Shown here: one piece after another, positions 52-58,274 of the stretch
Layout of the letters: each line of letters opens with the position of its first letter
Position numbering within the stretch: the first letter of the stretch is position 1
Virus record (IMG/VR): IMGVR_UViG_3300021185_002806
DNA length: 64,000 nt
Strand: one strand, 5' to 3'
From: a virus
Position numbers and translations under genes: made by a program
Notes under the pieces: generated by a model
Database searches by the model: none
Told to the model about the DNA's origin: nothing
What the model saw: only the letters and a program-made list of their open reading frames with translations

Positions 52-59
52 TATTTATC
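52..59 (-). promoter_or_regulatory. Late promoter motif GATAAATA (drives a gene left of the window)
   Basis: tatttatc on +; same motif precedes many virion genes; resembles T4 late TATAAATA. Confidence 0.55.
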
Positions 60-8589: not shown

Positions 8590-8597
8590 TATTTATC
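8590..8597 (-). promoter_or_regulatory. Late promoter GATAAATA
   Basis: Immediately upstream of ATG 8584; a divergent TAAATA at 8625-8630 precedes the + gene. Confidence 0.6.
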
Positions 8598-9962: not shown

Positions 9963-9970
9963 GATAAATA
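9963..9970 (+). promoter_or_regulatory. Late promoter GATAAATA (divergent)
   Basis: 26 nt before ATG 9997. Confidence 0.6.
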
Positions 9971-22808: not shown

Positions 22809-22816
22809 TATTTATC
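22809..22816 (-). promoter_or_regulatory. Late-type promoter GATAAATA before nrdB
   Basis: tatttatc on +. Confidence 0.5.
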
Positions 22817-25904: not shown

Positions 25905-26369
25905 TCATAAACGATGAGGCATGTATGCCTCATAAATTGCCGAATTTGCGCCATGTTCCGCACATTCTACTCTTACACAAAAACACCTACCATTTGAAGA
26001 TTCTCTTACGAGTTTATCCGCAAAACGCCAAGCGTGTTCTGAAAATTTTTCGACCCCTACACCATCTAATAGTGTAAGTTCTGCTAGACCAGATGATTCT
26101 AATTCAGTCAACTTATACAACAGAGGGTCATTTCTATCACAAACTACTTTATGGTCGAAACTATCCTCTAGCCATTTCTTTAGTGGTTTTAATCCACCAA
26201 AATCTACTACCCAATTACGTTCATCTAGTTCATTACATCCAAATGTAAATTTGAATGATAAACTATATCCATGTAATAAACTACAATGTGAATCTGCATG
26301 GGGCTGTCTAAACACTGCACTTAGTCCAATGTTATGCCCATAGCACTTGGTCGAAAAATATTTAGCCAT
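25905..26369 (-). CDS. queD: QueD / 6-pyruvoyl-tetrahydropterin synthase-like
   Basis: HCSLLHGY, WVVDFGGLK, FDHK, VECAE. Confidence 0.85.
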   Translation of the reverse strand: MAKYFSTKCYGHNIGLSAVFRQPHADSHCSLLHGYSLSFKFTFGCNELDERNWVVDFGGLKPLKKWLEDSFDHKVVCDRNDPLLYKLTELESSGLAELTLLDGVGVEKFSEHAWRFADKLVRESSNGRCFCVRVECAEHGANSAIYEAYMPHRL

Positions 26370-28737: not shown

Positions 28738-30702
28738 TTATCTGTTTGCGGCGCCGCCAACCATGTCATTTGACATAGTTCTTAACTGTACAAAGTCTAC
28801 AATATCGCTATCAAATTCGCCTGTCCAACCTTGAGCAACATTATCGCCATCAAAATTAGCATCTGTTGGCCAATCACCATACAATACTACTGTGTTTCCA
28901 TTAACAAGTTTAGCTGATTTAATTCTTTTATCAAACTTGTCAGCCATTTTTAAAACAGAATTAACTTTTTCTTTTGCATTCATGTCACTTAAATCATCTG
29001 CACCATCAACTACTAACTTTTGTAGATTCGGTGATAAGTCACCTACTGCATTAATTTGTTTAGCATCCATACCTGCATCTTGCATTACAGATGTAACTGC
29101 TTGAGTGTCAGACATATCAGGCGTAGATCCGCCACCGCCACCTACTACTCCGGCACCGATTGCGGCAATAAGTCCTAGACCTATCAACATTTTGCCAATC
29201 TTGCCTTCTTCTAATTGCATAATTTCTTCATACAATAATTGCTTTCGAACATCTTCATCTATGCCTGCAATATTGAATTTAGCAAATGCTTCTGAAAGCA
29301 TTCTATCAAACTGTTCATTCACAGGAGTACCTGCAGTTTCTACTGCTTCGTTCTGTGTTGCTAGTTTTCTCAAGTATCCAGTAATTTGAATCTTTTCTTT
29401 TGTAAGACCTTTGCCTGAACGAATCGAGTTACCCATATCCATTAAGAACATTGACAATTCAGCCGCTCTGTCGTGGCCTTTATTTTTACGCTTATTGTCA
29501 TCAGTAGTGTCAACGTCTACTCTGTCTGCTAAATCATCGATTGATAATGCTAACTTAAGTTTCTTTTGTTCTTCTGCTTCTTGTGGAGTACGAGGTTCTG
29601 CATATTGTTTCTTAATTGCATCGTAATCGTATTCTGCGCCTGGCTTTCTAGGAAAAGTAATTTTGTTTTTCTTTTCACCAGTTTTCTTATCTTTTGCTAG
29701 AATAATTTCTTTAACACGTGCAATTTGGTCAGCACGGTTATCTTCCATTTCTTCTTCATTTACACGATGAATTAACGGCAAAACATCCCTTAAAGATTCT
29801 TCAAATGTTGATTTTGTAAATTTAGAAACATAGCTGTTTACGGTATCTTCTGTAATTTCAGCATTTTGTTTTGCTTCTGTTGTTGCCATTTTTTCAACAA
29901 AACTTGCGTATCCTTTTGCACCTTGTACACGCTTAATAGATTCTTTAATTGATTCCATTCTACGCTTAACATTAAGTACAACTGAACGATTGCTTTCATT
30001 GATTAGTGATTGCTTATTAACAACATTCATAAACTCTTTTAATTTTGCTAGGTTTGATGAAAGTTCTACAATAGCCTCACCCACCATGTCGCTAGGTACA
30101 CCACCATGTGAAACGTGTCTCGCCATTGCTCTTGCGCCGTTCAAGTGTTTGAATGGATACTTGAAACGTTCACCTTCAGCATTTTCAACAAATATTGCTG
30201 AAATATTACGAGAACGTGCACCACGTGATTCTTCGTTTACTGCGTTGCGGTGTTTGACGATTAGTCTTACATTTTCTAGTGTTTGGCGACTGGTACGTGA
30301 TGATCCTTCTAAAGGCGATAAGCCCTCTTTCATTACGTCACTCATAGTCTGCTCCTTGTCTTTGTCTAATTTATATGTATAATTCTTAGGTTCAATATGT
30401 TTACCAAATGAACGCATATCAAAATCTAACATGTATTCACGTGATAACTGTCTCAAGCTATCCATTAATATTTTGGCTAGAGGTTTATCTATATCAACTC
30501 CTTCACCAAAATGAAGTTTGACTTCATTAGTACTTTCATCAATAGACACCATCATATTTGGTTCGTCTATATAGAAAAATCTAGCTTCCTCTGGATTAGA
30601 TACACTTTTTCCATTCTCAGCATTGAACATCTTCAAAGAAATACCATTTCCTTGAATAATTCTCATCACTTTTTCTGCGATTGTTGATATATTTACAGCC
30701 AT
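28738..30702 (-). CDS. Large hypothetical late protein, probably virion-associated
   Basis: 654 aa; late promoter; hydrophobic LIGLGLIAAIGAGVVGGGGG segment. Confidence 0.75.
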   Translation of the reverse strand: MAVNISTIAEKVMRIIQGNGISLKMFNAENGKSVSNPEEARFFYIDEPNMMVSIDESTNEVKLHFGEGVDIDKPLAKILMDSLRQLSREYMLDFDMRSFGKHIEPKNYTYKLDKDKEQTMSDVMKEGLSPLEGSSRTSRQTLENVRLIVKHRNAVNEESRGARSRNISAIFVENAEGERFKYPFKHLNGARAMARHVSHGGVPSDMVGEAIVELSSNLAKLKEFMNVVNKQSLINESNRSVVLNVKRRMESIKESIKRVQGAKGYASFVEKMATTEAKQNAEITEDTVNSYVSKFTKSTFEESLRDVLPLIHRVNEEEMEDNRADQIARVKEIILAKDKKTGEKKNKITFPRKPGAEYDYDAIKKQYAEPRTPQEAEEQKKLKLALSIDDLADRVDVDTTDDNKRKNKGHDRAAELSMFLMDMGNSIRSGKGLTKEKIQITGYLRKLATQNEAVETAGTPVNEQFDRMLSEAFAKFNIAGIDEDVRKQLLYEEIMQLEEGKIGKMLIGLGLIAAIGAGVVGGGGGSTPDMSDTQAVTSVMQDAGMDAKQINAVGDLSPNLQKLVVDGADDLSDMNAKEKVNSVLKMADKFDKRIKSAKLVNGNTVVLYGDWPTDANFDGDNVAQGWTGEFDSDIVDFVQLRTMSNDMVGGAANR

Positions 30703-30723: not shown

Positions 30724-30731
30724 TATTTATC
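30724..30731 (-). promoter_or_regulatory. Late promoter GATAAATA
   Basis: Overlaps the terminase TGA stop. Confidence 0.65.
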
Positions 30732-32289
30732 AAAATAGTACAGGAAGAGGGTCGTTAAAATCGTCTCCGGCTTCTAAAGATTCTCCTAACGTTTCCATAA
30801 ATTCTTCATCAAATCTTGATATTACTTGTATCTGCCTAATACAAAGTAAAGTAGCTGAAACTAAATCATCTGTTTCACCAGATTTTGCTTCGTAACTTTT
30901 ACCTTTTGCAATAAATGTTTTAAATTCTCTAATTAAGTTTCTACTCAGCGGTACCATTTTATCGCTCTCAATCCAAGATTTCAGCTTCATACATGCTGTT
31001 ATTTTAGTTTTGTAAGATGTAGTGAAACCTTTTCTAATTGCTTTTTGTATTCCTTTTTTCTTAGGCTCATGTAAGAATTCTCCTGGGAATTTGTCTTCAT
31101 CCATTTCTTCTATAACTATAAGAGCCGCTTCTCCCAGTGAATTGTTTTCAACAGACCAATAAATTTCCGGTCGTTGATTTCCCATTTCTTTCATTTCGTC
31201 ATTTAGTATTGTAAGAATATCGTGCATAGTTTTTACTTGGCCTCTGATATCAGTACGATTGCTTTGCCATTCTGCTACTTGTACTAGTTCAGGCAAAGAC
31301 CATACTTCAATAGCAGAATTATCCCCACCAGTACCCATAGCAGGATCAAGACCAATAACGTAAGTAGAATTTTTGTTAATTTTTTCATACCATCTTATTT
31401 GTCCAGTTTTCATAAGTGGCTCTTTGCCTTCTAAATGTGACAACTTAATACTATCTACAAGTGTTTCATCAAATGCAATAAATTCGCATTCATGTTCACG
31501 TAAAAAACGTTCTTCACCTACACGTGTTCTTTCTTCTTTTGACCACTGTTCATCTCTATCTGGATGCTCATACCAGACAGCCTTGAATGGTTTAAATCCG
31601 TTGATGCCTGTTTCTTTTTCATTGCCATGGTCATCGATATTTTTATTTGCGCCGCTCCATATCAATGCAAATTGGTCATCGTCTAAGTTTGGTGTTGAGG
31701 TAATAATAGCTTTACCACCTGTTGCTAGAGTAGGAGATATTGAAGTCCAAAACTCTTTTGCAATATTAGGTCTAACGAATGCAAACTCATCACAGTATAG
31801 TAAAGAGATTGAAAGACCACGACCTGTATTTTCTGTAGTTGCTTGTGCTATGATACGTGAACCATTATCAAACTCCATACTGCCTTTGTTATAACTCGTA
31901 ACACCTGCTCTAATATGGTCGGGACATAATTCATAGGCATGTCTAATTCTATGCATAATTTCTTGGGCACCTGAATATTTGTGTGCCGCAATTAGAATAG
32001 TTTGGTCTGGCATAAACATAGCATACCATAATAGATATCCTGCCGCAGTAGTAGATTTTCCCATCTGTCTACCTAACATAGAAATAGAAAATCTATAATC
32101 ATGATAAGAATGAAGTAATCCCCTTTGGTATCCATATGCATCATATATCATACTACCCTTAGTTGGGTGTTGTATTTTGAAATAATTATTCAAAAAGTAA
32201 AAAGGATCACTAGCACATCTACTAAATTCTAATAGTTGTGCATTACTAAACTTCGTTTTTTGATATGCTTTTTTAGTTAAATCTGCCAT
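30730..32289 (-). CDS. terL: Terminase large subunit (T4 gp17-like)
   Basis: GRQMGKST, YCDEFAFV, GLDPAMG, DDLV. Confidence 0.95.
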   Translation of the reverse strand: MADLTKKAYQKTKFSNAQLLEFSRCASDPFYFLNNYFKIQHPTKGSMIYDAYGYQRGLLHSYHDYRFSISMLGRQMGKSTTAAGYLLWYAMFMPDQTILIAAHKYSGAQEIMHRIRHAYELCPDHIRAGVTSYNKGSMEFDNGSRIIAQATTENTGRGLSISLLYCDEFAFVRPNIAKEFWTSISPTLATGGKAIITSTPNLDDDQFALIWSGANKNIDDHGNEKETGINGFKPFKAVWYEHPDRDEQWSKEERTRVGEERFLREHECEFIAFDETLVDSIKLSHLEGKEPLMKTGQIRWYEKINKNSTYVIGLDPAMGTGGDNSAIEVWSLPELVQVAEWQSNRTDIRGQVKTMHDILTILNDEMKEMGNQRPEIYWSVENNSLGEAALIVIEEMDEDKFPGEFLHEPKKKGIQKAIRKGFTTSYKTKITACMKLKSWIESDKMVPLSRNLIREFKTFIAKGKSYEAKSGETDDLVSATLLCIRQIQVISRFDEEFMETLGESLEAGDDFNDPLPVLF

Positions 32290-32292
32290 ATG

Positions 32293-33066
32293 CTATTCTA
32301 TTTTTCCTACTTTACCGTCTGCTTTAATTTCTGTATCAGCAAGTCTCTTAACTCTGTCTCTCCAACCCACTTCACCTATTGCTCCGGTGAGTGTTACTCT
32401 TATGTTATCACCTGCATCCGGGTCAACACGTGTTATACCATGTATTGAATTTTTCTGTATTAATATTAATCTATTTGGTTTAGGACTTACAAATGTACCT
32501 AAGCCAACATCCATAATAGGTTTAAATTGTCTTTGTTGTTCAAACATTTCTAATGGACTATTTAATTCTTTATAACTATCATGATGCACAGTGCCTTCTT
32601 TTAATTCTAACCACTGCGAATATTCTTGTGCAGACCCTAAAGGCAAAATACACAATGTAGAATCCCAGTTTATTTGCCATTTCTTATGCAAATAATAAGT
32701 GTATGTTGTAAAGCCAAAATCACAATGCCAAGGGTTTTTAGAATTAGCAGGATAGGCATGACAACGCATTGCATAATCTTCAAATTTGCCTCCTGTAACA
32801 TACTCATCGATATGTTCATATTCATTTAAAAATTTATTAAAATATTCAAACCACAAATCAGAGTTATCGCCTCTAGGATATCCACCTTGCCAACGTTTTT
32901 TATTTTTATAATTTGCACCATCAGTATAGTGCCAAAACTTATCATCACCTTGCGTCTGTTCCCATTCATCGACTTGAACTTGATTTAAAATCTTATCTTG
33001 TACTTCTTCTGGTAAGAAGTCATCAACAATCAAACACTCTGGTGTTCTCATAACAACATTATACAT
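32293..33066 (-). CDS. 2OG-Fe(II) oxygenase (prolyl-hydroxylase-like)
   Basis: WHCD...PKPNRLIL...HGITRV...RVTLTG (HxD...H...R). Confidence 0.8.
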   Translation of the reverse strand: MYNVVMRTPECLIVDDFLPEEVQDKILNQVQVDEWEQTQGDDKFWHYTDGANYKNKKRWQGGYPRGDNSDLWFEYFNKFLNEYEHIDEYVTGGKFEDYAMRCHAYPANSKNPWHCDFGFTTYTYYLHKKWQINWDSTLCILPLGSAQEYSQWLELKEGTVHHDSYKELNSPLEMFEQQRQFKPIMDVGLGTFVSPKPNRLILIQKNSIHGITRVDPDAGDNIRVTLTGAIGEVGWRDRVKRLADTEIKADGKVGKIE

Positions 33067-34093
33067 AGCTTTGTCTTTCTCCTTGTCTACTCAAATCTAA
33101 AGTGACACAATGTAAGCCACTGTCCCAGAAATATTTATGTCTAAAATCAAAAGGTATCATTTCAACTCCGTATTTCTTTAATTCTTTTTCAATTCTTGTA
33201 TCATGCCCATTTGTAATCAATGTATTTTCGTCAATACTTACTACATTCAAATCAAATACTGTTTCATCTACATACCCAATCCAATGTGATAGCCAATTTT
33301 CTACTTTGTCTTTATAGAAGTGTTGTATTCTCATTTCGTGAAACCACTCAGGTAAATCCCATGGTGTTAAAATAATCTTATCCCAATGTTTTAATTCTTC
33401 GGGAATATATTCTTCTTTCCATGTCATTAGTAATCCTGGTTTGATAATTGCTAACATACCATCAGCATGACCGCACTCAGGGATTTCTATCCATTTAGTT
33501 TCACAACCTATATTTCTTTTTACCCAATCTAACCCTGTTCTTGTTCCTCTTGCCCCAAAATCTCTGCCTTCTGGATCATGATACGGTCTTGAATGAATTA
33601 AAGTATCACCGCATTTTATAATATTTGCGGCATGATACATTATCTGAGGTTCCATTGTCTCATAATGCTGATACTGAGACTGCAATAAAGGTCTAGGCAT
33701 TGCAACATAGTTTCTTCCTTGTTTATGTTTTTCTAACATTATATCTAAGAAGTAATCACTTTCAGTATATCTATTACAATCACCACCTATAGTATTGATA
33801 ATAGTATCTCCATAAACTATATGATGGTCACGAGGACATATAGCAGGATATGGAAACTCTGATTTCCATTGTCTTGTGCTTTCAGCCTGCAAAGGTATAT
33901 TCTTTGGTCTATGAACTTTAACACTTGCTGATTTAAATATATCTGATAATTTTTGAAAATCTTGTTCTGTTTCTTCTAGTATCTTTGACATACTATCAAC
34001 AAATTGTGTATCATTGAATTGTTCTAAAGACTTTGTATCATAAGTGGAACCAACAATAATCTCTGTTAGTTTATCCCATTCTGTCCATATCAT
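33059..34093 (-). CDS. Amidinotransferase (pentein family, glycine/inosamine amidinotransferase-like)
   Basis: WTEWDKLTEIIVG, CPRD, GHADG, SGLHCVTLDL catalytic Cys. Confidence 0.85.
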   Translation of the reverse strand: MIWTEWDKLTEIIVGSTYDTKSLEQFNDTQFVDSMSKILEETEQDFQKLSDIFKSASVKVHRPKNIPLQAESTRQWKSEFPYPAICPRDHHIVYGDTIINTIGGDCNRYTESDYFLDIMLEKHKQGRNYVAMPRPLLQSQYQHYETMEPQIMYHAANIIKCGDTLIHSRPYHDPEGRDFGARGTRTGLDWVKRNIGCETKWIEIPECGHADGMLAIIKPGLLMTWKEEYIPEELKHWDKIILTPWDLPEWFHEMRIQHFYKDKVENWLSHWIGYVDETVFDLNVVSIDENTLITNGHDTRIEKELKKYGVEMIPFDFRHKYFWDSGLHCVTLDLSRQGERQSYV

Positions 34094-34124
34094 GTATTAT
34101 CCTAATTAACTTCTAATATAATAC

Positions 34125-34132
34125 TATTTATG
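34125..34132 (-). promoter_or_regulatory. Late promoter CATAAATA of amidinotransferase-oxygenase-terL operon
   Basis: Directly after the upstream terminator. Confidence 0.58.
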
Positions 34133-34135
34133 CAT

Positions 34136-34162
34136 AAAAAAAAGGGAGCCTAACTCCCTTTT
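34136..34162. terminator. Bidirectional intrinsic terminator
   Basis: A8-gggag-cctaa-ctccc-T4. Confidence 0.75.
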
Positions 34163-34185
34163 AATTTTAGATAAGTTGAAAATTA

Positions 34186-35037
34186 TTAATATACTTGTGT
34201 TGTGCCGTTATATTCGAACTGGTCAGAGTAACCATTTGTACTTCTTCTATGATGAGAAAACTCATATTTATAGCCATCAGCATCGTAAAAAGTAAGCCAT
34301 GCAGTATTTTCATAATTTGAAATTACTTGTCCTTCAAACAATTGGTCAAGTACTGTTGCTCTTGCACCGAATTGCGAACCGTCATAATCAATGTTCCATC
34401 TTGTATAACTTGACTGAGCATCTTTTGTAAATCCTGATATATGATATCCATTTGGTGCATGAATGCTTGAGTATGCAGAATCATCCAATCCCCAAGTATG
34501 ATATGCACTGTTGCCCGACAAGGTAAACGTATTAGACGGTATTGTATCGCCTAATTCCAGTGTTGTACTTGATGGAGCATGTACTACTTTAACAAGTGTA
34601 ACGTCAGTAGTCATACCAGTTGAAGTCCAATCAGGGTGGTCACTATCCATATCAACATGGTCATTTATGTAAGATGATATATTAGTATTATAACTAGCAC
34701 CTGTAACACGTAGATAATGAGTACGTGCCTGTGTTGGCGTTCCAGTTGATGTTTGAGTTGGCCATGCAGTCGTAACCGCTGTATCTGTTATTAGTCCATG
34801 GTCTTGTGTATCGACTACTACCAAATCATTTACTGTAGATAAATCTACGAATTCTCTTGTACCTGATTTAGATCCCCCAAATGATGCTCTGTGTACCGCT
34901 CCCGATGTTGGCAAATCAACCGCATCATCTGTAATTGAACCGAAATCTTCTAGTTCTGCTAACCAAATAGAACGTCTAACTATTACTTTTGGGCCAGCAC
35001 CTGCGTTTTGCCAAGTAACCCCACGATATTTTGCCAT
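34186..35037 (-). CDS. Hypothetical Thr/Ser-rich late protein, probably tail-associated
   Basis: 283 aa; DFGSITD/DHGLITD motifs shared with the 56490 fibre; late promoter at 35083. Confidence 0.72.
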   Translation of the reverse strand: MAKYRGVTWQNAGAGPKVIVRRSIWLAELEDFGSITDDAVDLPTSGAVHRASFGGSKSGTREFVDLSTVNDLVVVDTQDHGLITDTAVTTAWPTQTSTGTPTQARTHYLRVTGASYNTNISSYINDHVDMDSDHPDWTSTGMTTDVTLVKVVHAPSSTTLELGDTIPSNTFTLSGNSAYHTWGLDDSAYSSIHAPNGYHISGFTKDAQSSYTRWNIDYDGSQFGARATVLDQLFEGQVISNYENTAWLTFYDADGYKYEFSHHRRSTNGYSDQFEYNGTTQVY

Positions 35038-35082: not shown

Positions 35083-35090
35083 TATTTATC
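35083..35090 (-). promoter_or_regulatory. Late promoter GATAAATA
   Basis: tatttatc on +. Confidence 0.62.
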
Positions 35091-36898: not shown

Positions 36899-37471
36899 TT
36901 ATTTATCATTTTTGTTATTTTTTTCTGATTTTTTACCGGTTGCTTCATCGGCAACTGCTTGTGCAGAAGCAATTCTTTTTAATAATTCGTTTCTATCCAT
37001 ATTTAAAGAGCCTTCAGCTTCAATTTCGTCATCATCTTTAAGTAAATCTCTATCTTTCTGATGGTCTAGCTTTGCTTTTTGTAATTGCAAATTAATCATT
37101 TTTAATTTTCTGTCTACTTTGCTATCTTTAGCCTCTTTTGCTGTTTTTAATAGCTGATTTGCAGTTTCTAATATCTTTGCACCAGCGTGTACTTCCACAT
37201 TCATGCCTAATTGCAATAAATCTTCAAATGTCTGCATAGCCTTGCCATGAATATCATCCATTTCTCTATCGTGTTCATTTAAATCTGATACCATAGGCAA
37301 AGAAGCATCAATTTTCTCTGCATTCTTCATTTCAGTATTAATTATTTTGGATATTTCAGTAGATTCTTCTATAGTAGGCACACCTTCATCAATATCATCT
37401 TCATTTGCGATAATTTTTTCAATTTCATCACTACTAGAGATATTAAATGTTTCTTCTAATTTCTTTGTCAT
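36899..37471 (-). CDS. Helical late protein, candidate small terminase
   Basis: 190 aa; helical core and C-terminal DRNELLKRI; terS call is tentative. Confidence 0.5.
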   Translation of the reverse strand: MTKKLEETFNISSSDEIEKIIANEDDIDEGVPTIEESTEISKIINTEMKNAEKIDASLPMVSDLNEHDREMDDIHGKAMQTFEDLLQLGMNVEVHAGAKILETANQLLKTAKEAKDSKVDRKLKMINLQLQKAKLDHQKDRDLLKDDDEIEAEGSLNMDRNELLKRIASAQAVADEATGKKSEKNNKNDK

Positions 37472-37502: not shown

Positions 37503-37510
37503 TATTTATC
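37503..37510 (-). promoter_or_regulatory. Late promoter GATAAATA
   Basis: tatttatc on +. Confidence 0.62.
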
Positions 37511-40506: not shown

Positions 40507-40514
40507 TATTTATC
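40507..40514 (-). promoter_or_regulatory. Late promoter GATAAATA of tube gene
   Basis: tatttatc on +. Confidence 0.65.
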
Positions 40515-43348: not shown

Positions 43349-43377
43349 TATTTATCGAAAAATGCAAAAAAGTGGGT
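43349..43377 (-). promoter_or_regulatory. Late promoter of sheath gene with conserved upstream 15-mer
   Basis: ACCCACTTTTTTGCA-N6-GATAAATA; identical arrangement at 52-80. Confidence 0.65.
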
Positions 43378-44008: not shown

Positions 44009-44328
44009 ATAATCCTCAGTATTATGTTATACAGTATTATGGTAACTATTGCGCCTATTGATGCTGAAAACCAAAAGCCATAAGTTTGAACCAGTAACCC
44101 AAATATAACAAAAAACGAGAGACTTGTCAAGACAAAATATATAGTTTGTATAGAAAATTTTGAAAACGTTGCAGTATCAACGCCTCCGAACCACATAAAA
44201 ATCATTGCCAGAAATGCAGTGAATGGTATGCCCATCAATAAAGCCGCCATAGTAACGCTACGATTAGCCATCATACTTACTGATGCAACAATTATACCAG
44301 ATATTATAGCTTTTAAAATGAATTCCAT
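44005..44328 (-). CDS. Small multi-pass membrane protein (DUF3147-like)
   Basis: Four hydrophobic segments; LKAIISGIIVA...LMGIPF. Confidence 0.6.
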   Translation of the reverse strand: MEFILKAIISGIIVASVSMMANRSVTMAALLMGIPFTAFLAMIFMWFGGVDTATFSKFSIQTIYFVLTSLSFFVIFGLLVQTYGFWFSASIGAIVTIILYNIILRII

Positions 44329-45437
44329 ACTTCTCTTAATCCTATCTTATCTATCTTAGTATTTACTAAGATATCATTTTCTTTTTCTTTATCTATAATT
44401 TGGTCGAGAGTGTATGAATGTGTAGTTGGTTGATTTATAAATTCTATTAATAATTGTAATTCTTCTTGTCCATCAAATGCATGTTTAAGTACATTAGATA
44501 GTTTAATCTTTAAACTACTTTCTAAATTTTTTAATGACATATGATCCGGGTAGTCCAACATATCAACATCAGGCATCTTTCCAAAATGACTGTATGAAAA
44601 CTCTACTATATCCTTTAATAGGTGTATGTTAAAGACGTTTATCACAGTATGCATACCTAACGTCATATTATCTGATTTATGCTCTGTAAAGTGATTTATG
44701 GCGCTCTGAATAGTATCCCAGGTGTGCGGTGGTCTAAGCACTTCGTTTGCTTCACCTATTGCATCAATGCTAAAGACTACTTCTACTTCTTTTATTTTAG
44801 ACCAAGCATCAAATATTTCCTGCTTTGGTATTATTGTACCATTAGTGTTATAAAACAATCTTACGTTACTAGGAGCATCTGATTTGTTTATGATTTGATT
44901 TAAAAAGTTTGAATGCTTCTTATCCAATAATGGTTCGCCGCCAATAAATTTAACAAAATCTAGTTTAGACAAGTCAGTATTATAATGTTCTAAATCAAAT
45001 GAATCTACAGATACATCAACCGACATACCTGGATTTTTTATTAATTTCCATTTACTACTAAAAGTATCATTGCACATTCTACAAGATAAATTACAATGTG
45101 TCGATAACGCAGTCTCTATATATCTTATCTTTGGCTCTTGTCCTATGAATTTATCGTACTGATTAAATTGTTGCCTGAATGATTGTGTATTATTATCTTC
45201 TGCACGCCAACACTTGTCGCACATTGAAAGTTTTTCACCTTTCAACATTTTACTTCTTATATCATTGAAGAATTTAGAATTAAATGCGTTATGCAACCCA
45301 TCTTTTAATTTTGGGGCTTCGTCTATGTTTGGGATATTGCTTTCTTCTACAAAGCAACAAGGCAATACAGTACCATCTACCTTTAATCTCGCATGAGACC
45401 ACAGTAAGGAACAAGCAGTTTTGGGTATATTATCCAA
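44313..45437 (-). CDS. Radical SAM protein with N-terminal SPASM/twitch domain
   Basis: CNLSCRMC, FIGGEPL, N-terminal C...GTVLPCC...CDKC; TTG start. Confidence 0.85.
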   Translation of the reverse strand: MDNIPKTACSLLWSHARLKVDGTVLPCCFVEESNIPNIDEAPKLKDGLHNAFNSKFFNDIRSKMLKGEKLSMCDKCWRAEDNNTQSFRQQFNQYDKFIGQEPKIRYIETALSTHCNLSCRMCNDTFSSKWKLIKNPGMSVDVSVDSFDLEHYNTDLSKLDFVKFIGGEPLLDKKHSNFLNQIINKSDAPSNVRLFYNTNGTIIPKQEIFDAWSKIKEVEVVFSIDAIGEANEVLRPPHTWDTIQSAINHFTEHKSDNMTLGMHTVINVFNIHLLKDIVEFSYSHFGKMPDVDMLDYPDHMSLKNLESSLKIKLSNVLKHAFDGQEELQLLIEFINQPTTHSYTLDQIIDKEKENDILVNTKIDKIGLREVWNSF

Positions 45438-46203: not shown

Positions 46204-46211
46204 TATTTATC
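46204..46211 (-). promoter_or_regulatory. Late promoter GATAAATA
   Basis: tatttatc on +. Confidence 0.65.
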
Positions 46212-46765: not shown

Positions 46766-46835
46766 ATCTATCTCTCCCGGGATATAAATTAGTAATGTTA
46801 ATTTAGTATGCTCGTCAGCATCTACATACTATTTA

Positions 46836-48110
46836 TCAAAATACCTTGAGAAGCAGGGTATGTTCATTAATTCTGCCATTCATCTTTGTAGGGACACTCT
46901 TAATTGCTTCAAATTGCTTGTTAAGAGAACGTTTATTGATATCTTTAAATATCTTTAATTGCTCTTGAGGCTTACGTAGGGTCTTCTGTACACTAGTTTC
47001 CTCGTTAAATCGTATCATGGTAGTACCTTTAACACTAAGGCCGCTTCCTTCACGTTTTTGGTTCATTGGATCTACATTACTCGTATGATATATACCTAGC
47101 TTACGTGATTTTGTATTATAAAGAACTAGTATATTACTCCCAACTATCTCAATAGGATTAATACTAACTAATCCAGTATCAACATGTTCTTTCATAAACT
47201 TCATTTTAGATACAAGTTTTTCAGAACTAACAGGTTTCTTTTTACGAGGCTTTCGGTCAAATTTTGCATTAGCAATTACCATATCACAAGCCTGTACAAT
47301 ACTCTTATACATTTCGTACATTGCTTTAATTTCAGACTTTTCTAAATGAGAATAGCCTTCAATAAGTTGTTCGTGCCAATCAAGTTCCTTTTCAGACATT
47401 CCTTTTGTCTTAGGAGGATTAATTAGTTCATCATACTCATTAAAATTTGCAACGTACAACTCCCTAATAACTTTAGCGTGATTGGCTTTTGCTTCCTGCT
47501 TACGCAAAATATTAATAGGCTTGAAATTTTTCAATGAGTTTGTATCCATATCAAATTCATCAATAAAGTCTTCTAATTCATCTGTCATAGACAATGCTTT
47601 TAAACGTAGAAGTTCTTGTATAGAAGGACGATATTTATTTTTCTTTTGTTCTTCTTTTTCTACTTCTTCTTTTGCCTCACGCATTTCTTTTCCACGTGCG
47701 ATTGCAGTAGTAACTTGTTTGCGAATAAATTCACTAATTGGAGTTATGTGTCCGCCAGTGCCCGGAAGAGTTTGCCAGTAATCATCTTCCTTTTGATTAA
47801 AGTCAGGCATACCATCCAGTAGTAACCTTGAACATATTGCACATGTTACACTCAATGACGATTCTGGTGGGATCTTTGCTAACTTTATTTCTTCGTTTGT
47901 ATATCCGTTCTTTCCCATCCATGAAAATATGTATGCATATAAATCTTTTGGTTGATAATTTTCATAGTAGAAACTACGGGCATGTTCTTTCTTACGATGA
48001 TATTCTGCTCCGGACAAAGTTTCCCAACCATCCCATTTCGGTGATTCTAGTTTTGCTCCTCGTTTGGATGGGGCTCTCTTTATTGCTTTTTTCTTTTTCG
48101 CCAATGCCAT
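46836..48110 (-). CDS. Hypothetical protein of a type seen in T4-like phages
   Basis: 424 aa; C-terminal YNTKSRKLG...VKGTT...KTLRKP...NGRIN. Confidence 0.75.
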   Translation of the reverse strand: MALAKKKKAIKRAPSKRGAKLESPKWDGWETLSGAEYHRKKEHARSFYYENYQPKDLYAYIFSWMGKNGYTNEEIKLAKIPPESSLSVTCAICSRLLLDGMPDFNQKEDDYWQTLPGTGGHITPISEFIRKQVTTAIARGKEMREAKEEVEKEEQKKNKYRPSIQELLRLKALSMTDELEDFIDEFDMDTNSLKNFKPINILRKQEAKANHAKVIRELYVANFNEYDELINPPKTKGMSEKELDWHEQLIEGYSHLEKSEIKAMYEMYKSIVQACDMVIANAKFDRKPRKKKPVSSEKLVSKMKFMKEHVDTGLVSINPIEIVGSNILVLYNTKSRKLGIYHTSNVDPMNQKREGSGLSVKGTTMIRFNEETSVQKTLRKPQEQLKIFKDINKRSLNKQFEAIKSVPTKMNGRINEHTLLLKVF

Positions 48111-48181: not shown

Positions 48182-48880
48182 TCAAGTTTTAAGTCTATCC
48201 GTGTTATTATCTAACAAATTAGCATCCTCAAGTACATCATTGCGTAGTGCGTTTATAAGCAATGCACTTCTATATAAATTAGATTTATTAGGCATTGTAC
48301 TATGCAATGTTCTACCATCATACATTAGCACATCACCTGCTTTTGCTAAAAATTGGTGACCTTCATTAACTAATCTATCATTGTAATGCTCTTGGTTGTC
48401 CTGAATATCTTTATAATATATCTTTTCCAAATGCGAACCAGGAAGATACGCAGTGCCGCCATTCTCTAAAGTGAAATCATTAAGAGGTATAATTATTTGT
48501 ACACCCAATGTAGCATCTACTTTGGCATATTTTTCAAATCGATAAGGCGTATCTATGTGTGCATAAATTTTACTTGATTTAGGTGCAGTGGTAATACAGT
48601 CAACCGCATGTATATTCCACTCCTTGGATCCAAATAACGTATCAATATACTTGTTTAATGGTACAACAACTGGTAACCACATTTCTCTAGGAGGTGCTTT
48701 TGTCCACCAAACATCATATGTACGTTTTCCGTCATGTTCATTATAGTAAATACCGTCTGATCCATTGCCTCTGTGTGCATTATCAGGGTTCATTGCCCAT
48801 AATCTAAATTGTTCTATTGCAATTCTAGGTAAATAATCACGTGCAATAATATATCCTGCACTAGTTAATCGGTCATCCAT
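48182..48880 (-). CDS. PhyH-family Fe(II)/2OG dioxygenase
   Basis: AHID, ENGGT, GDVLMYDGRTLHST...RSA. Confidence 0.82.
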   Translation of the reverse strand: MDDRLTSAGYIIARDYLPRIAIEQFRLWAMNPDNAHRGNGSDGIYYNEHDGKRTYDVWWTKAPPREMWLPVVVPLNKYIDTLFGSKEWNIHAVDCITTAPKSSKIYAHIDTPYRFEKYAKVDATLGVQIIIPLNDFTLENGGTAYLPGSHLEKIYYKDIQDNQEHYNDRLVNEGHQFLAKAGDVLMYDGRTLHSTMPNKSNLYRSALLINALRNDVLEDANLLDNNTDRLKT

Positions 48881-48906: not shown

Positions 48907-48935
48907 ATTATATGATAAATACGTATAGAAGTCAA
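48907..48935 (-). promoter_or_regulatory. sigma70 promoter with a divergent late promoter inside its spacer
   Basis: TTGACT-N17-TATAAT on -, GATAAATA at 48914-48921 on +. Confidence 0.75.
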
Positions 48936-56445: not shown

Positions 56446-56453
56446 TATTTATC
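56446..56453 (-). promoter_or_regulatory. Late promoter GATAAATA
   Basis: tatttatc on +. Confidence 0.6.
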
Positions 56454-58266: not shown

Positions 58267-58274
58267 TATTTATC
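58267..58274 (-). promoter_or_regulatory. Late promoter GATAAATA
   Basis: tatttatc on +. Confidence 0.65.

What the first reader, a model, noticed from the sequence alone, without database searches (positions are those of the whole stretch)
30730..34132. Amidinotransferase and Fe/2OG oxygenase co-transcribed with the large terminase: candidate undescribed modification system
The sequence shows terminator, late promoter, amidinotransferase (intact Asp/His/Cys motifs), an 8-nt overlap, 2OG oxygenase (HxD..H..R), a 3-nt gap, then terL. Pentein amidinotransferases move an amidino group from Arg to an amine, as in creatine and streptidine synthesis. I know of no defined role for them in phages. 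Tight coupling to packaging suggests guanidinylation plus hydroxylation of DNA bases before encapsidation (e.g. on a preQ1-type amine, given queD), or of virion proteins or polyamine counter-ions. The target is pure inference.
Basis: partly seen in the sequence, partly recalled or inferred. Interest (0 to 1): 0.75.

Follow-up and report, generated by a model that had tools for sequence, protein, structure and literature searches.

The report
Accessory amidinotransferase-oxygenase cassette before terminase gene
An uncultured marine jumbo phage carries a conserved two-enzyme cassette (an arginine-type amidinotransferase and an iron/2-oxoglutarate hydroxylase) inserted between the terminase gene and its late promoter. 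Close relatives lack it at the same site, so it is optional cargo of unknown chemical target, not part of DNA packaging.

Summary
On the minus strand lie a terminator, a late-type promoter, a 344-aa amidinotransferase (AT), an 8-nt overlap, a 257-aa Fe/2OG oxygenase (OG), a 3-nt gap, then terL.

AT groups with StrB1, HsvA, SxtG and AGAT by sequence and fold. However, its catalytic-triad Asp is replaced by His154. OG is a PHD/OGFOD1-like hydroxylase with an intact HxD...H...R site.

The pair is a genuine conserved cassette: AT lies directly upstream of OG in 33 of 38 viral loci. Its link to terL is not functional:
- Twelve relatives with 88-92% identical TerL lack the cassette.
- Two of them, read at the sequence level, carry the same terminator and CATAAATA promoter directly before terL.
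- In other phages the pair sits among radical-SAM, PLP and hydroxylase genes.

A complete 342.6-kb relative has no DpdA or QueC, so the preQ1-DNA idea is not supported.

Most likely the cassette adds an arginine-derived guanidino group to an amine and hydroxylates the product or its precursor, as part of the tailoring-enzyme repertoire of aquatic phages. The substrate is unknown.

This scan has noted the same enzyme family before on other phage DNA.

The parts
34140..34162 (-). Intrinsic terminator ending the upstream late gene (283-aa ORF 34186-35037)
   Evidence: 10-bp G+C stem, 3-nt loop and T-run. The homologous hairpin precedes terL in the cassette-less relative L161. None of the listed RNA contigs from the four metatranscriptome runs crosses 34118-34174 (weak hint).
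34125..34132 (-). Late-type promoter box CATAAATA; this is terL's own promoter, now driving AT-OG-terL
   Evidence: Sequence read. The local late consensus GATAAATA occurs 16 times against 6.8 expected. The identical TGCATAAATA lies directly before the terL ATG in the cassette-less L152 and L161.
33059..34093 (-). Viral-clade amidinotransferase (AT, 344 aa). Cys329, His209, Asp89, Asp211 and Arg108 are present; the triad Asp is replaced by His154.
   Evidence: phmmer against PDB: SxtG 1.8e-20, StrB1 8.7e-19, HsvA 1.7e-16. Family profile against StrB1: 3.8e-64. AF2 model pLDDT 91; Foldseek gives HsvA/AGAT/SxtG/StrB1 at about 1e-25 against DDAH at 1e-12. No Pfam or NCBIfam hit.
32293..33066 (-). 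Fe(II)/2-oxoglutarate oxygenase (OG, 257 aa), prolyl-hydroxylase-like; H114-x-D116, H209, R223
   Evidence: PF13640 is weak on this protein (E 0.0058) but is recorded (precomputed) for many of its homologues. The iron and 2OG ligands are invariant. AF2 model pLDDT 90.9. VIA gives OGFOD1 Z 17.0, PPHD Z 16.1, PHD2 Z 15.4 and PolD Z 15.2. Foldseek gives PHD2 at 1.5e-8.
30730..32289 (-). Large terminase subunit (TerL), T4-type
   Evidence: Terminase_6N 2.7e-18, Terminase_6C 8.2e-5; phrog_36964 4.7e-139.
30724..30731 (-). GATAAATA late promoter of the next gene (654-aa virion protein); marks the end of the three-gene unit
   Evidence: It overlaps the terL stop codon and lies 29 nt before the ATG at 30702.

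Best explanation
AT and OG form a mobile, accessory two-gene enzyme cassette of aquatic phages.

Placement. In this T4-like jumbo-phage lineage the cassette sits in a variable slot between terL and terL's own late promoter. It is therefore made late, on the terL transcript. That placement is an accident of insertion and not a link to DNA packaging.

Inferred chemistry:
1. AT uses Cys329 to take the amidino group from L-arginine, releasing ornithine.
2. AT passes the amidino group to a primary amine on a still unknown acceptor, making a guanidino group.
3. OG uses Fe(II), 2-oxoglutarate and O2 to hydroxylate that product or its precursor.

The pair probably works with the phage's large set of radical-SAM, PLP-aminotransferase and Asp/Arg-hydroxylase genes. 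That set builds an uncharacterised, heavily tailored molecule (sugar-, amino-acid- or peptide-type).

Shown: gene structure, enzyme-family membership, pair conservation, presence/absence at the terL site, and presence in RNA libraries. Inferred: the donor, the acceptor, the order of the two steps and the biological purpose.
For: Enzyme identity:
- AT.
- OG.

Pair conservation:
- OG lies directly downstream of AT (4-8 nt overlap) in 22 of the 85 AT loci compared. All 22 have AT at least about 50% identical to the window's.
- AT lies directly upstream of OG in 33 of 38 OG-centred loci.

The cassette is accessory:
- 16 loci with TerL at least 88% identical carry it.
- 12 loci with TerL 88-92% identical lack it, with the same flanking genes.
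- L152 and L161 have the same terminator plus TGCATAAATA directly before the terL ATG.
- Other cargo fills the slot there: ORFs of 151 aa and 262 aa.

Other contexts of the pair or of AT relatives:
- Radical SAM, 2OG-FeII_Oxy_5, Asp_Arg_Hydrox, ATP-grasp, fatty-acid desaturase, a short PLP aminotransferase, an omega-transaminase and a KdoO-like oxygenase.

The complete relative G008 (342,607 bp, terminal repeats) has:
- 17 radical SAM genes.
- The PLP partner inside a radical-SAM/hydroxylase island.
- A second AT paralogue.

The family is overwhelmingly viral:
- At least 585 IMG/VR stretches encode a relative.
- The nearest Atlas clusters are 96-100% viral.

Expression:
- Six metatranscriptome runs hold 69-92% of the stretch.
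- RNA contigs bridge both gene junctions.

Published data:
- Cyanophage S-SCSM2R has an AT homologue (ORF266) overlapped by a 2OG oxygenase gene.
- ORF266 and a nearby 2OG oxygenase (ORF269) were detected in its virion proteome (PMC12801897).
Against: - No substrate is identified.
- The catalytic-triad Asp conserved in all four solved amidinotransferases is His154 here, and it varies (H/E/D/T/S/R/W) across the viral family. Transfer chemistry is therefore not assured.
- AT reaches no Pfam or NCBIfam threshold.
- The window itself and a 160-kb relative fragment lack the PLP partner.
- RNA contigs cannot prove a single transcript and may include DNA carry-over.
- Cooperation with the distant radical-SAM island is inferred from co-occurrence in other phages only.
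Confidence: 0.55

Rival explanations
1. First reader's idea. The pair modifies phage DNA before or during packaging, by guanidinylation plus hydroxylation of a base such as a preQ1-type 7-deazaguanine amine.
For: - Late co-transcription with terL.
- A QueD/PTPS gene at 25905-26369.
- FolE is present in the complete relative.
Against: - The complete relative G008 has no TGT/DpdA and no QueC, although the control genomes all scored. A route to 7-deazaguanine in DNA is therefore missing.
- The cassette is absent from 12 close relatives that keep the same terL and flanking genes.
- In other phages the pair is far from terL.
- OG's nearest folds are protein prolyl hydroxylases, not TET/JBP or AlkB (AlkB Z 11.7 against OGFOD1 Z 17.0).
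Confidence: 0.05
2. Protein modification. OG is a true prolyl (or other residue) hydroxylase acting on a virion or host translation protein. AT converts lysine or ornithine side chains to homoarginine or arginine on the same or another protein.
For: - OG's best structural matches all hydroxylate proteins: OGFOD1/Tpa1 on ribosomal uS12, PPHD on EF-Tu, PHD2 on HIF.
- Frequent neighbours are families typical of peptide or protein maturation: SPASM/twitch radical SAM, Asp/Asn beta-hydroxylase, ATP-grasp.
- Expression is late, among head genes.
- The AT and 2OG homologues were found in the S-SCSM2R virion proteome (PMC12801897).
Against: - No amidinotransferase of this branch is known to me to act on proteins (my own knowledge, not tested here).
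- Small-molecule enzymes (PolD Z 15.2, PasI Z 14.0) score nearly as well as the protein hydroxylases.
- No conserved precursor-peptide gene was seen beside the pair.
- The cassette is dispensable in close relatives.
Confidence: 0.15
3. Polyamine amidination. As with Erwinia HsvA, AT amidinates putrescine, spermidine or a related polyamine. This would yield guanidino-polyamines that serve as counter-ions for packaged DNA or alter host physiology, and OG would hydroxylate them.
For: - HsvA, a polyamine amidinotransferase, is the top Foldseek match (1.9e-25) and the second-best profile match (5.3e-62).
- An ornithine/arginine decarboxylase gene lies 2 kb from the pair in L003.
- Timing is late.
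Against: - HsvA is not separable from AGAT, SxtG or StrB1 by score.
- The decarboxylase neighbour occurs in one context only.
- Cassette-less sister phages package DNA with the same terL.
Confidence: 0.1
4. Arginine breakdown. With its altered triad (His for Asp), AT acts mainly as a hydrolase, releasing ornithine plus urea or ammonia to mobilise nitrogen. This would resemble the cyanobacterial ArgZ/AgrE-PutA route, and OG would be functionally separate.
For: - The triad substitution.
- In the complete relative, a second AT paralogue lies about 2.3 kb (four ORFs) downstream of a full-length PutA and close to an ATE_C-like gene.
- Omega-transaminases lie beside distant AT relatives.
Against: - Sequence and fold place AT with the transferases (about 1e-25), far from ArgZ/AgrE and DDAH (about 1e-11).
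- The strict translational coupling and co-inheritance of AT with OG argue for one pathway.
- PutA adjacency concerns a 25%-identical paralogue in a single genome.
Confidence: 0.1

Closest known systems
L-arginine:inosamine-phosphate amidinotransferase StrB1 (streptomycin pathway) and its relatives AGAT, SxtG, CyrA-type enzymes
   Same: Same pentein fold and same family. The family profile scores 3.8e-64 against StrB1 and 5.7e-56 against AGAT. The catalytic Cys and His, both guanidino-binding Asp residues and an Arg are conserved. In other phages, AT relatives sit beside aminotransferases, as StrB1 works after StsC.
   Different: The triad Asp is replaced by His154. There is an extra insertion (about residues 245-280) with a W-I-G-Y-V-D-E-T motif, and a family-specific FRHxYFWDxGxHC motif. 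The clade is almost exclusively viral. The acceptor is unknown, and no cyclitol or sugar-nucleotide gene lies in the window.
HsvA, polyamine amidinotransferase of Erwinia amylovora (PDB 5wpi)
   Same: Best Foldseek match (E 1.9e-25, TM 0.76). Profile match 5.3e-62.
   Different: 22% identity. HsvA keeps the triad Asp ('FDAAD'). It is a bacterial virulence-locus gene with no coupled 2OG oxygenase shown here.
Prolyl hydroxylases of the PHD/OGFOD1/PPHD group (PF13640, 2OG-FeII_Oxy_3)
   Same: OG shares the double-stranded beta-helix fold: OGFOD1 Z 17.0, PPHD Z 16.1, PHD2 Z 15.4. It has the HxD...H iron triad and the 2OG-binding Arg. Homologues carry PF13640.
   Different: Only 11-17% identity. 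OG itself is below the Pfam cut-off (18 against 27 bits). It has a conserved N-terminal region of its own (D15, D49-G50, P64). The substrate is unknown, and small-molecule enzymes such as PolD score similarly.
Radical-SAM / amidinotransferase modules of Campylobacter phages CP220 and CPt10 (Timms et al. 2010, PMC2853527), and the hypervariable 'host recognition cluster' islands of pelagimyophages and cyanomyophages (PMC7029224)
   Same: The same viral AT family: CP220 at 24.5% identity over 98% of the query. The same companions: several radical SAM genes, oxygenases and glycosyltransferases. The function is equally uncharacterised.
   Different: Here only AT and OG travel together, detached from the island and placed behind the terL promoter. 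The PLP and radical-SAM partners lie about 126 kb away in the complete relative.
Phage morons / accessory cargo inserted into late operons
   Same: A self-contained gene unit present or absent between a promoter and a conserved structural gene, and expressed from the resident promoter.
   Different: The cargo is a pair of biosynthetic enzymes, not a lysogenic-conversion or defence gene. The phage is T4-like and presumably virulent.

Membership tests
Amidinotransferase family (pentein/GME superfamily; AGAT, StrB1, SxtG, HsvA) | Significant full-length sequence similarity to characterised members | tested here: met
   phmmer gives SxtG 1.8e-20, StrB1 8.7e-19 and HsvA 1.7e-16 over residues 2-344. 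The family profile gives 3.8e-64 to 1e-55. No Pfam-A hit.
Amidinotransferase family (pentein/GME superfamily; AGAT, StrB1, SxtG, HsvA) | Pentein (five-fold beta-beta-alpha-beta propeller) fold closest to amidinotransferases rather than to ADI, DDAH or AgD | tested here: met
   AF2 model pLDDT 91. In Foldseek, ranks 1-7 are all amidinotransferases at about 1e-25 to 1e-23. DDAH, ArgZ and ADI score from 1.7e-12 down to about 1e-9.
Amidinotransferase family (pentein/GME superfamily; AGAT, StrB1, SxtG, HsvA) | Nucleophilic Cys and general-base His (AGAT C407/H303; StrB1 C332/H227) | tested here: met
   C329 lies in GLHCVTLD and H209 in CGHADG; both align to StrB1 C332 and H227. H209 is invariant and C329 is at least 90% conserved.
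Amidinotransferase family (pentein/GME superfamily; AGAT, StrB1, SxtG, HsvA) | Third triad residue Asp (AGAT D254; StrB1 D179, 'FDAA') | tested here: not met
   The aligned residue is His154 ('YHAAN'). All four solved enzymes have Asp there. Across the viral family the position varies: H, E, D, T, S, R.
Amidinotransferase family (pentein/GME superfamily; AGAT, StrB1, SxtG, HsvA) | Two Asp residues that hold the guanidino group (AGAT D170/D305; StrB1 D108/D229) | tested here: met
   D89 (CPRD, invariant) and D211 (H-A-D, at least 90% conserved) align to StrB1 D108 and D229.
Amidinotransferase family (pentein/GME superfamily; AGAT, StrB1, SxtG, HsvA) | Catalysis of amidino transfer from L-arginine to an amine | not testable with these tools
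   Needs an enzyme assay.
Fe(II)/2-oxoglutarate oxygenases, prolyl-4-hydroxylase-like group (PF13640) | HxD/E...H iron-binding triad and a basic residue binding the 2OG C5 carboxylate | tested here: met
   H114, D116, H209 and R223 are invariant in 23 family members.
Fe(II)/2-oxoglutarate oxygenases, prolyl-4-hydroxylase-like group (PF13640) | Double-stranded beta-helix fold closest to PHD/OGFOD1/P4H | tested here: met
   AF2 model pLDDT 90.9. OGFOD1 Z 17.0 (rmsd 3.1, 186 aligned), PPHD Z 16.1, PHD2 Z 15.4. Foldseek gives PHD2 at 1.5e-8.
Fe(II)/2-oxoglutarate oxygenases, prolyl-4-hydroxylase-like group (PF13640) | Pfam gathering threshold for PF13640 | tested here: inconclusive
   This protein scores 18 bits against a cut-off of 27. 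Many homologues at 55-60% identity carry PF13640 in precomputed annotation.
Fe(II)/2-oxoglutarate oxygenases, prolyl-4-hydroxylase-like group (PF13640) | Hydroxylation of peptidyl proline | not testable with these tools
   Substrate unknown. Small-molecule oxygenases (PolD, PasI, SnoK) score within 2-3 Z units of the protein hydroxylases.
Phage 7-deazaguanine DNA modification system (FolE-QueD-QueE-QueC + DpdA) | DpdA/TGT-family transglycosylase and QueC in the phage genome | tested here: not met
   PF01702 and PF06508 give no match in the complete 342.6-kb relative G008 or in three large fragments of the lineage. The controls ring in 14 of 14 genomes. Only QueD/PTPS and FolE are present.
Packaging-linked function (operon partner of terL) | Co-inheritance with terL across relatives | tested here: not met
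   12 of 28 loci with TerL at least 88% identical lack AT-OG. All 39 loci with TerL 52-80% identical in that scan lack it too. 20 of 41 OG loci have no TerL within 4 kb.

The most novel reading that the evidence does not exclude
The cassette is a late-expressed virion-finishing module. It would install a hydroxy-guanidino (arginine-like) group on a virion component: a capsid or tail protein residue, a virion-bound glycan, or the polyamine counter-ions packed with the DNA. That would be a chemical modification of phage particles not yet described. Its presence or absence among sister phages would then reflect an arms race over particle stability or host recognition.
Probability: 0.15. Interest if true: 0.8.

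Novelty: new variant of a known kind. Interest (0 to 1): 0.5.

Why it matters
Amidinotransferases are known from creatine, streptomycin, saxitoxin and cylindrospermopsin pathways.

This work defines a large, almost purely viral clade of them. At least 585 IMG/VR stretches encode a relative. The clade has an altered catalytic triad and a fixed 2OG-oxygenase partner, and its product is unknown.

The work also gives a clean natural experiment. Sister phages with 88-95% identical terminases differ by exactly this cassette at one site. Comparing their metabolites, virions and DNA could reveal what guanidino chemistry abundant ocean phages perform.

Finally, it corrects a tempting inference. Sharing a transcript with terL here reflects insertion behind a resident promoter, not a packaging function.

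Tried and rejected
- Complex prediction of AT with OG: no verdict, score 0.00. It says nothing either way.
- Pfam and NCBIfam give no family for AT. PHROGs gives only an unnamed family. For OG it gives a family labelled 'DNA endonuclease V', which I take to be a mis-annotation, since the fold is a 2OG oxygenase.
- The PLP partner (profile A3) was sought in the window and in 160 kb of a near-identical relative. No hit. It was later found in the complete relative.
- The S-SCSM2R 2OG genes ORF267 and ORF269 were compared with OG. No detectable sequence similarity, so that pairing is analogous and not shown to be orthologous.
- The MTase-like neighbour (cluster 10, A4) was tested against PDB as a possible GAMT, to probe a 'creatine pathway' reading (PMC11360552). 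No significant match, so it is not taken further.
- The ornithine decarboxylase neighbour (L003) and PutA beside the paralogue (G008) were considered as evidence for arginine/ornithine metabolism. Each occurs in a single context.
- T4's own late box TATAAATA is not enriched: 5 matches against 9.7 expected. The local word is GATAAATA.
- No whole genome is held for the window. The closest phage records match by DNA only within terL.
- RNA contig depth was not used to rank expression. The gap in RNA contigs at 34118-34174 is treated only as a weak hint.

Full report
OBSERVATION

The window is part of a T4-like marine jumbo phage. It carries gp23, gp32, UvsX, UvsW, RNR and a T4-type TerL. The closest DNA matches are PA5oct- and Rak2-like jumbo phages, within terL only.

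Three genes lie on the minus strand:
- AT, 33059-34093, 344 aa.
- OG, 32293-33066, 257 aa.
- terL, 30730-32289, 519 aa.

AT and OG overlap by the 8 nt ATGTATAA, with an AAGGAG ribosome-binding site in front. OG and terL are separated by 3 nt, TAG-CAT-ATG.

Upstream of AT there is an intrinsic terminator at 34162-34140. It is followed by ATGCATAAATAG.

The window's late-promoter word is GATAAATA, not T4's TATAAATA. GATAAATA occurs 16 times against 6.8 expected, nearly always 25-55 nt before a gene start. TATAAATA is not enriched. The box before AT, CATAAATA, differs from GATAAATA by one base. The next GATAAATA overlaps the terL stop codon and serves the 654-aa virion protein gene. AT-OG-terL is therefore a bounded three-gene unit.

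WHAT THE PROTEINS ARE

AT has no Pfam or NCBIfam hit. It is nevertheless clearly an amidinotransferase:
- phmmer against PDB gives SxtG 1.8e-20, StrB1 8.7e-19 and HsvA 1.7e-16 over the full length.
- A profile of 40 family members gives 3.8e-64 for StrB1 and about 1e-55 for AGAT.
- A confident AF2 model (pLDDT 91) matches HsvA, AGAT, SxtG and StrB1 at about 1e-25. DDAH, ArgZ and ADI follow at 1e-12 or weaker.

Residue mapping onto StrB1:

| AT residue | StrB1 residue |
|---|---|
| D89 | D108 |
| R108 | R127 |
| H209 | H227 |
| D211 | D229 |
| C329 | C332 |

One deviation stands out. The third triad residue is Asp in all four solved enzymes ('FDAA'). Here it is His154 ('YHAAN'), and it varies across the viral family. 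A change in chemistry, for example more hydrolysis, cannot be excluded.

OG has the invariant H114-x-D116, H209 and R223 of Fe/2OG oxygenases. Many of its homologues carry PF13640. Its model (pLDDT 90.9) is closest to protein prolyl hydroxylases:
- OGFOD1, Z 17.0.
- PPHD, Z 16.1.
- PHD2, Z 15.4.

Small-molecule oxygenases such as PolD (Z 15.2) come close behind. The fold therefore does not fix the substrate class.

IS THE PAIR CONSERVED?

Yes. AT relatives are abundant and almost exclusively viral:
- 97 protein clusters in the first search.
- 727 representatives at E of 1e-3 or better.
- At least 585 IMG/VR stretches.
- The nearest Atlas clusters are 96-100% viral.

Among AT loci at least about 50% identical, OG follows immediately, with the same 4-8 nt overlap, in nearly all. 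In all, 22 of the 85 loci compared have this arrangement. Starting from OG instead, AT lies directly upstream in 33 of 38 loci with room to see it.

IS IT TIED TO terL?

No.

TerL follows OG in 21 of 41 loci, all from one lineage with TerL at least 77% identical. Elsewhere the pair sits among other genes:
- Radical SAM, 2OG-FeII_Oxy_5, Asp_Arg_Hydrox, ATP-grasp and desaturase genes (L001).
- A short PLP aminotransferase and, once, an ornithine/arginine decarboxylase (L003).

A TerL-centred scan settles the question:
- 16 loci with TerL at least 88% identical carry the cassette.
- 12 loci with TerL 88-92% identical lack it, while keeping the same upstream head-protein and downstream virion-protein genes.
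- All loci with TerL 52-80% identical in that scan lack it.

In two cassette-less relatives, L152 and L161, the same T-rich terminator and the same TGCATAAATA lie directly in front of the terL ATG. The L161 hairpin is homologous to the window's. In those genomes the slot just upstream of the terminator holds other small ORFs of 151 and 262 aa with no known domain.

The cassette therefore lies between terL and terL's own late promoter. Co-transcription is a consequence of where it landed.

EXPRESSION

Six marine metatranscriptome runs hold 69-92% of the stretch.

RNA contigs bridge both junctions:
- terL/OG: 31151-32526 and 31394-32366.
- OG/AT: 32340-33766, 32929-33766 and 32331-33139.

In all four runs laid, no listed contig crosses 34118-34174, the terminator-promoter interval. 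One contig ends at 34117, about where a transcript from CATAAATA would start. This fits a late AT-OG-terL transcript. It is only a weak hint, because contigs show neither ends nor strands and DNA carry-over is possible.

THE queD/preQ1 IDEA

A QueD/PTPS gene is present at 25905-26369.

G008 is a complete relative: 342,607 bp, terminal repeats, CheckV 100%, AT 94% and TerL 95% identical. It has FolE but neither QueC nor a TGT/DpdA. The controls scored in 14 of 14 genomes. Three large fragments of the lineage also lack TGT.

The route to 7-deazaguanine in DNA is therefore missing.

WIDER CONTEXT

More distant AT relatives (28-42% identical) sit inside clusters with up to six radical SAM genes. 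Those clusters also hold the short PLP enzyme, omega-transaminases, KdoO-like and Asp/Arg hydroxylases and MTase-like genes.

Isolated phages show the same module:
- Campylobacter phages CP220 and CPt10 have five radical SAM genes plus a 'glycine amidinotransferase', function unknown (PMC2853527).
- Cyanophage S-SCSM2R has one AT homologue in a glycosyltransferase/radical-SAM/2OG cluster.
- S-SCSM2R has another AT homologue, ORF266, overlapped by a 2OG oxygenase gene beside KdsA/KdsB.
- ORF266 and the nearby 2OG oxygenase ORF269 were detected in its virion proteome (PMC12801897).

Pelagimyophage and cyanomyophage 'host recognition cluster' islands are described as carrying glycosyltransferase and radical-SAM cassettes (PMC7029224).

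The window itself carries an N-terminal-twitch radical SAM (44313-45437, NF033640 at 5.5e-79) and a PhyH oxygenase (48182-48880).

The complete relative G008 carries:
- 17 radical SAM genes.
- The PLP partner inside a radical-SAM/Asp_Arg_Hydrox island about 126 kb from the cassette.
- A second, 25%-identical AT paralogue close to PutA, about 2.3 kb and four ORFs downstream of it.

Earlier notes of this scan on other phage genomes describe the same family as a 'guanidino-group cassette' within radical-SAM tailoring islands. I treated these as leads and re-derived the neighbourhoods independently.

MECHANISM

Best-supported reading (confidence 0.55 overall). The structural and evolutionary part is about 0.85. 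The chemistry is about 0.4.

AT-OG is an accessory, mobile two-enzyme unit:
1. AT forms a Cys329-amidino intermediate from arginine.
2. AT transfers the amidino group to a primary amine.
3. OG hydroxylates that product or its precursor.

The pair draws on, or feeds, the phage's tailoring toolkit. The acceptor is unknown. It could be an aminosugar or cyclitol, an amino acid, a polyamine or a peptide.

Rivals:
- Protein modification, 0.15.
- Polyamine amidination, 0.10.
- Arginine catabolism by a hydrolase-like variant, 0.10.
- DNA modification coupled to packaging, 0.05.

NOVELTY AND VERDICT

The enzymes belong to known superfamilies, and phage 'amidinotransferases' have been annotated before. 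No function has been shown in the literature searched.

New here:
- The definition of a viral AT clade with a His-for-Asp triad.
- Its fixed OG partner.
- The demonstration that the cassette is a presence/absence insertion behind the terL promoter.

Interest is moderate (0.5). The chemistry is an open question in very abundant ocean phages, and there is a ready natural control. The packaging and DNA-modification story that made the finding stand out is not supported.

Noticed in passing
window 52-59, 2895-2902, 8590-8597, 22809-22816, 30724-30731, 35083-35090, 36900-36907, 37503-37510, 40507-40514, 43349-43356, 46204-46211, 46830-46837, 56446-56453, 58267-58274 (minus strand); 9963-9970, 48914-48921 (plus strand): The phage's late-promoter word appears to be GATAAATA rather than T4's TATAAATA. 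GATAAATA occurs 16 times against 6.8 expected, mostly 25-55 nt upstream of gene starts. TATAAATA is not enriched (5 against 9.7 expected).
   Followed up: partly
L152:3463-3918 and L161:3127-3915 (cassette-less relatives): The slot upstream of terL is a variable cargo site. Where AT-OG is absent, it holds unrelated ORFs of 151 aa or 262 aa with no Pfam family.
   Followed up: partly
window 44313-45437 (-): A 374-aa radical SAM enzyme with its auxiliary SPASM/twitch domain at the N-terminus (NF033640, 5.5e-79). It starts at a TTG. It belongs to the same radical-SAM cluster that surrounds AT relatives in other phages (33% identity, E 6.5e-63).
   Followed up: partly
window 48182-48880 (-): A PhyH-type (phytanoyl-CoA dioxygenase family) Fe/2OG oxygenase (PF05721, 1.7e-15). 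It is a further oxygenase in this phage and is unlinked to the cassette.
   Followed up: no
window 25905-26369 (-); L137 (G008:70649-71176): QueD/PTPS in the window and FolE in the complete relative, with no QueC and no DpdA/TGT anywhere in that genome. This looks like a pterin-type rather than a 7-deazaguanine pathway, or one that relies on host enzymes.
   Followed up: partly
L138:2284-8699 (G008:325283-331698): The complete relative carries a full-length PutA (proline dehydrogenase plus P5C dehydrogenase, 948 aa). After it come a phosphoribosyltransferase, an arginyl-tRNA-protein-transferase-like (ATE_C) 141-aa protein, DUF6614 and a second, 412-aa amidinotransferase paralogue. This is a possible arginine/proline-metabolism block.
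   Followed up: partly
L006-L009, L095-L104 versus the window: Among close relatives, OG is much more diverged (78-83% identity) than the flanking AT (94-96%) and TerL (90-95%). Two contigs (L093, L141) have 100% identical OG. This suggests allelic replacement or faster evolution of OG within the cassette.
   Followed up: no
window 33132-33139 (-): A second CATAAATA lies inside the 3' end of AT (codons for RHKY of the conserved FRHKYFWD motif), 66 nt before the OG start. It could be a chance match or an internal promoter.
   Followed up: no
window 34118-34174: In four marine metatranscriptome assemblies, listed contigs cover both sides of this terminator-promoter interval but none crosses it. 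One contig ends at 34117.
   Followed up: partly
L139 (G008:94000-108000): A 14-kb island in the complete relative holds at least six radical SAM genes (several with N-terminal SPASM/twitch), two Asp/Arg-hydroxylase genes, the short PLP aminotransferase and MTase-like genes. A second radical-SAM cluster lies at about 138-146 kb.
   Followed up: partly
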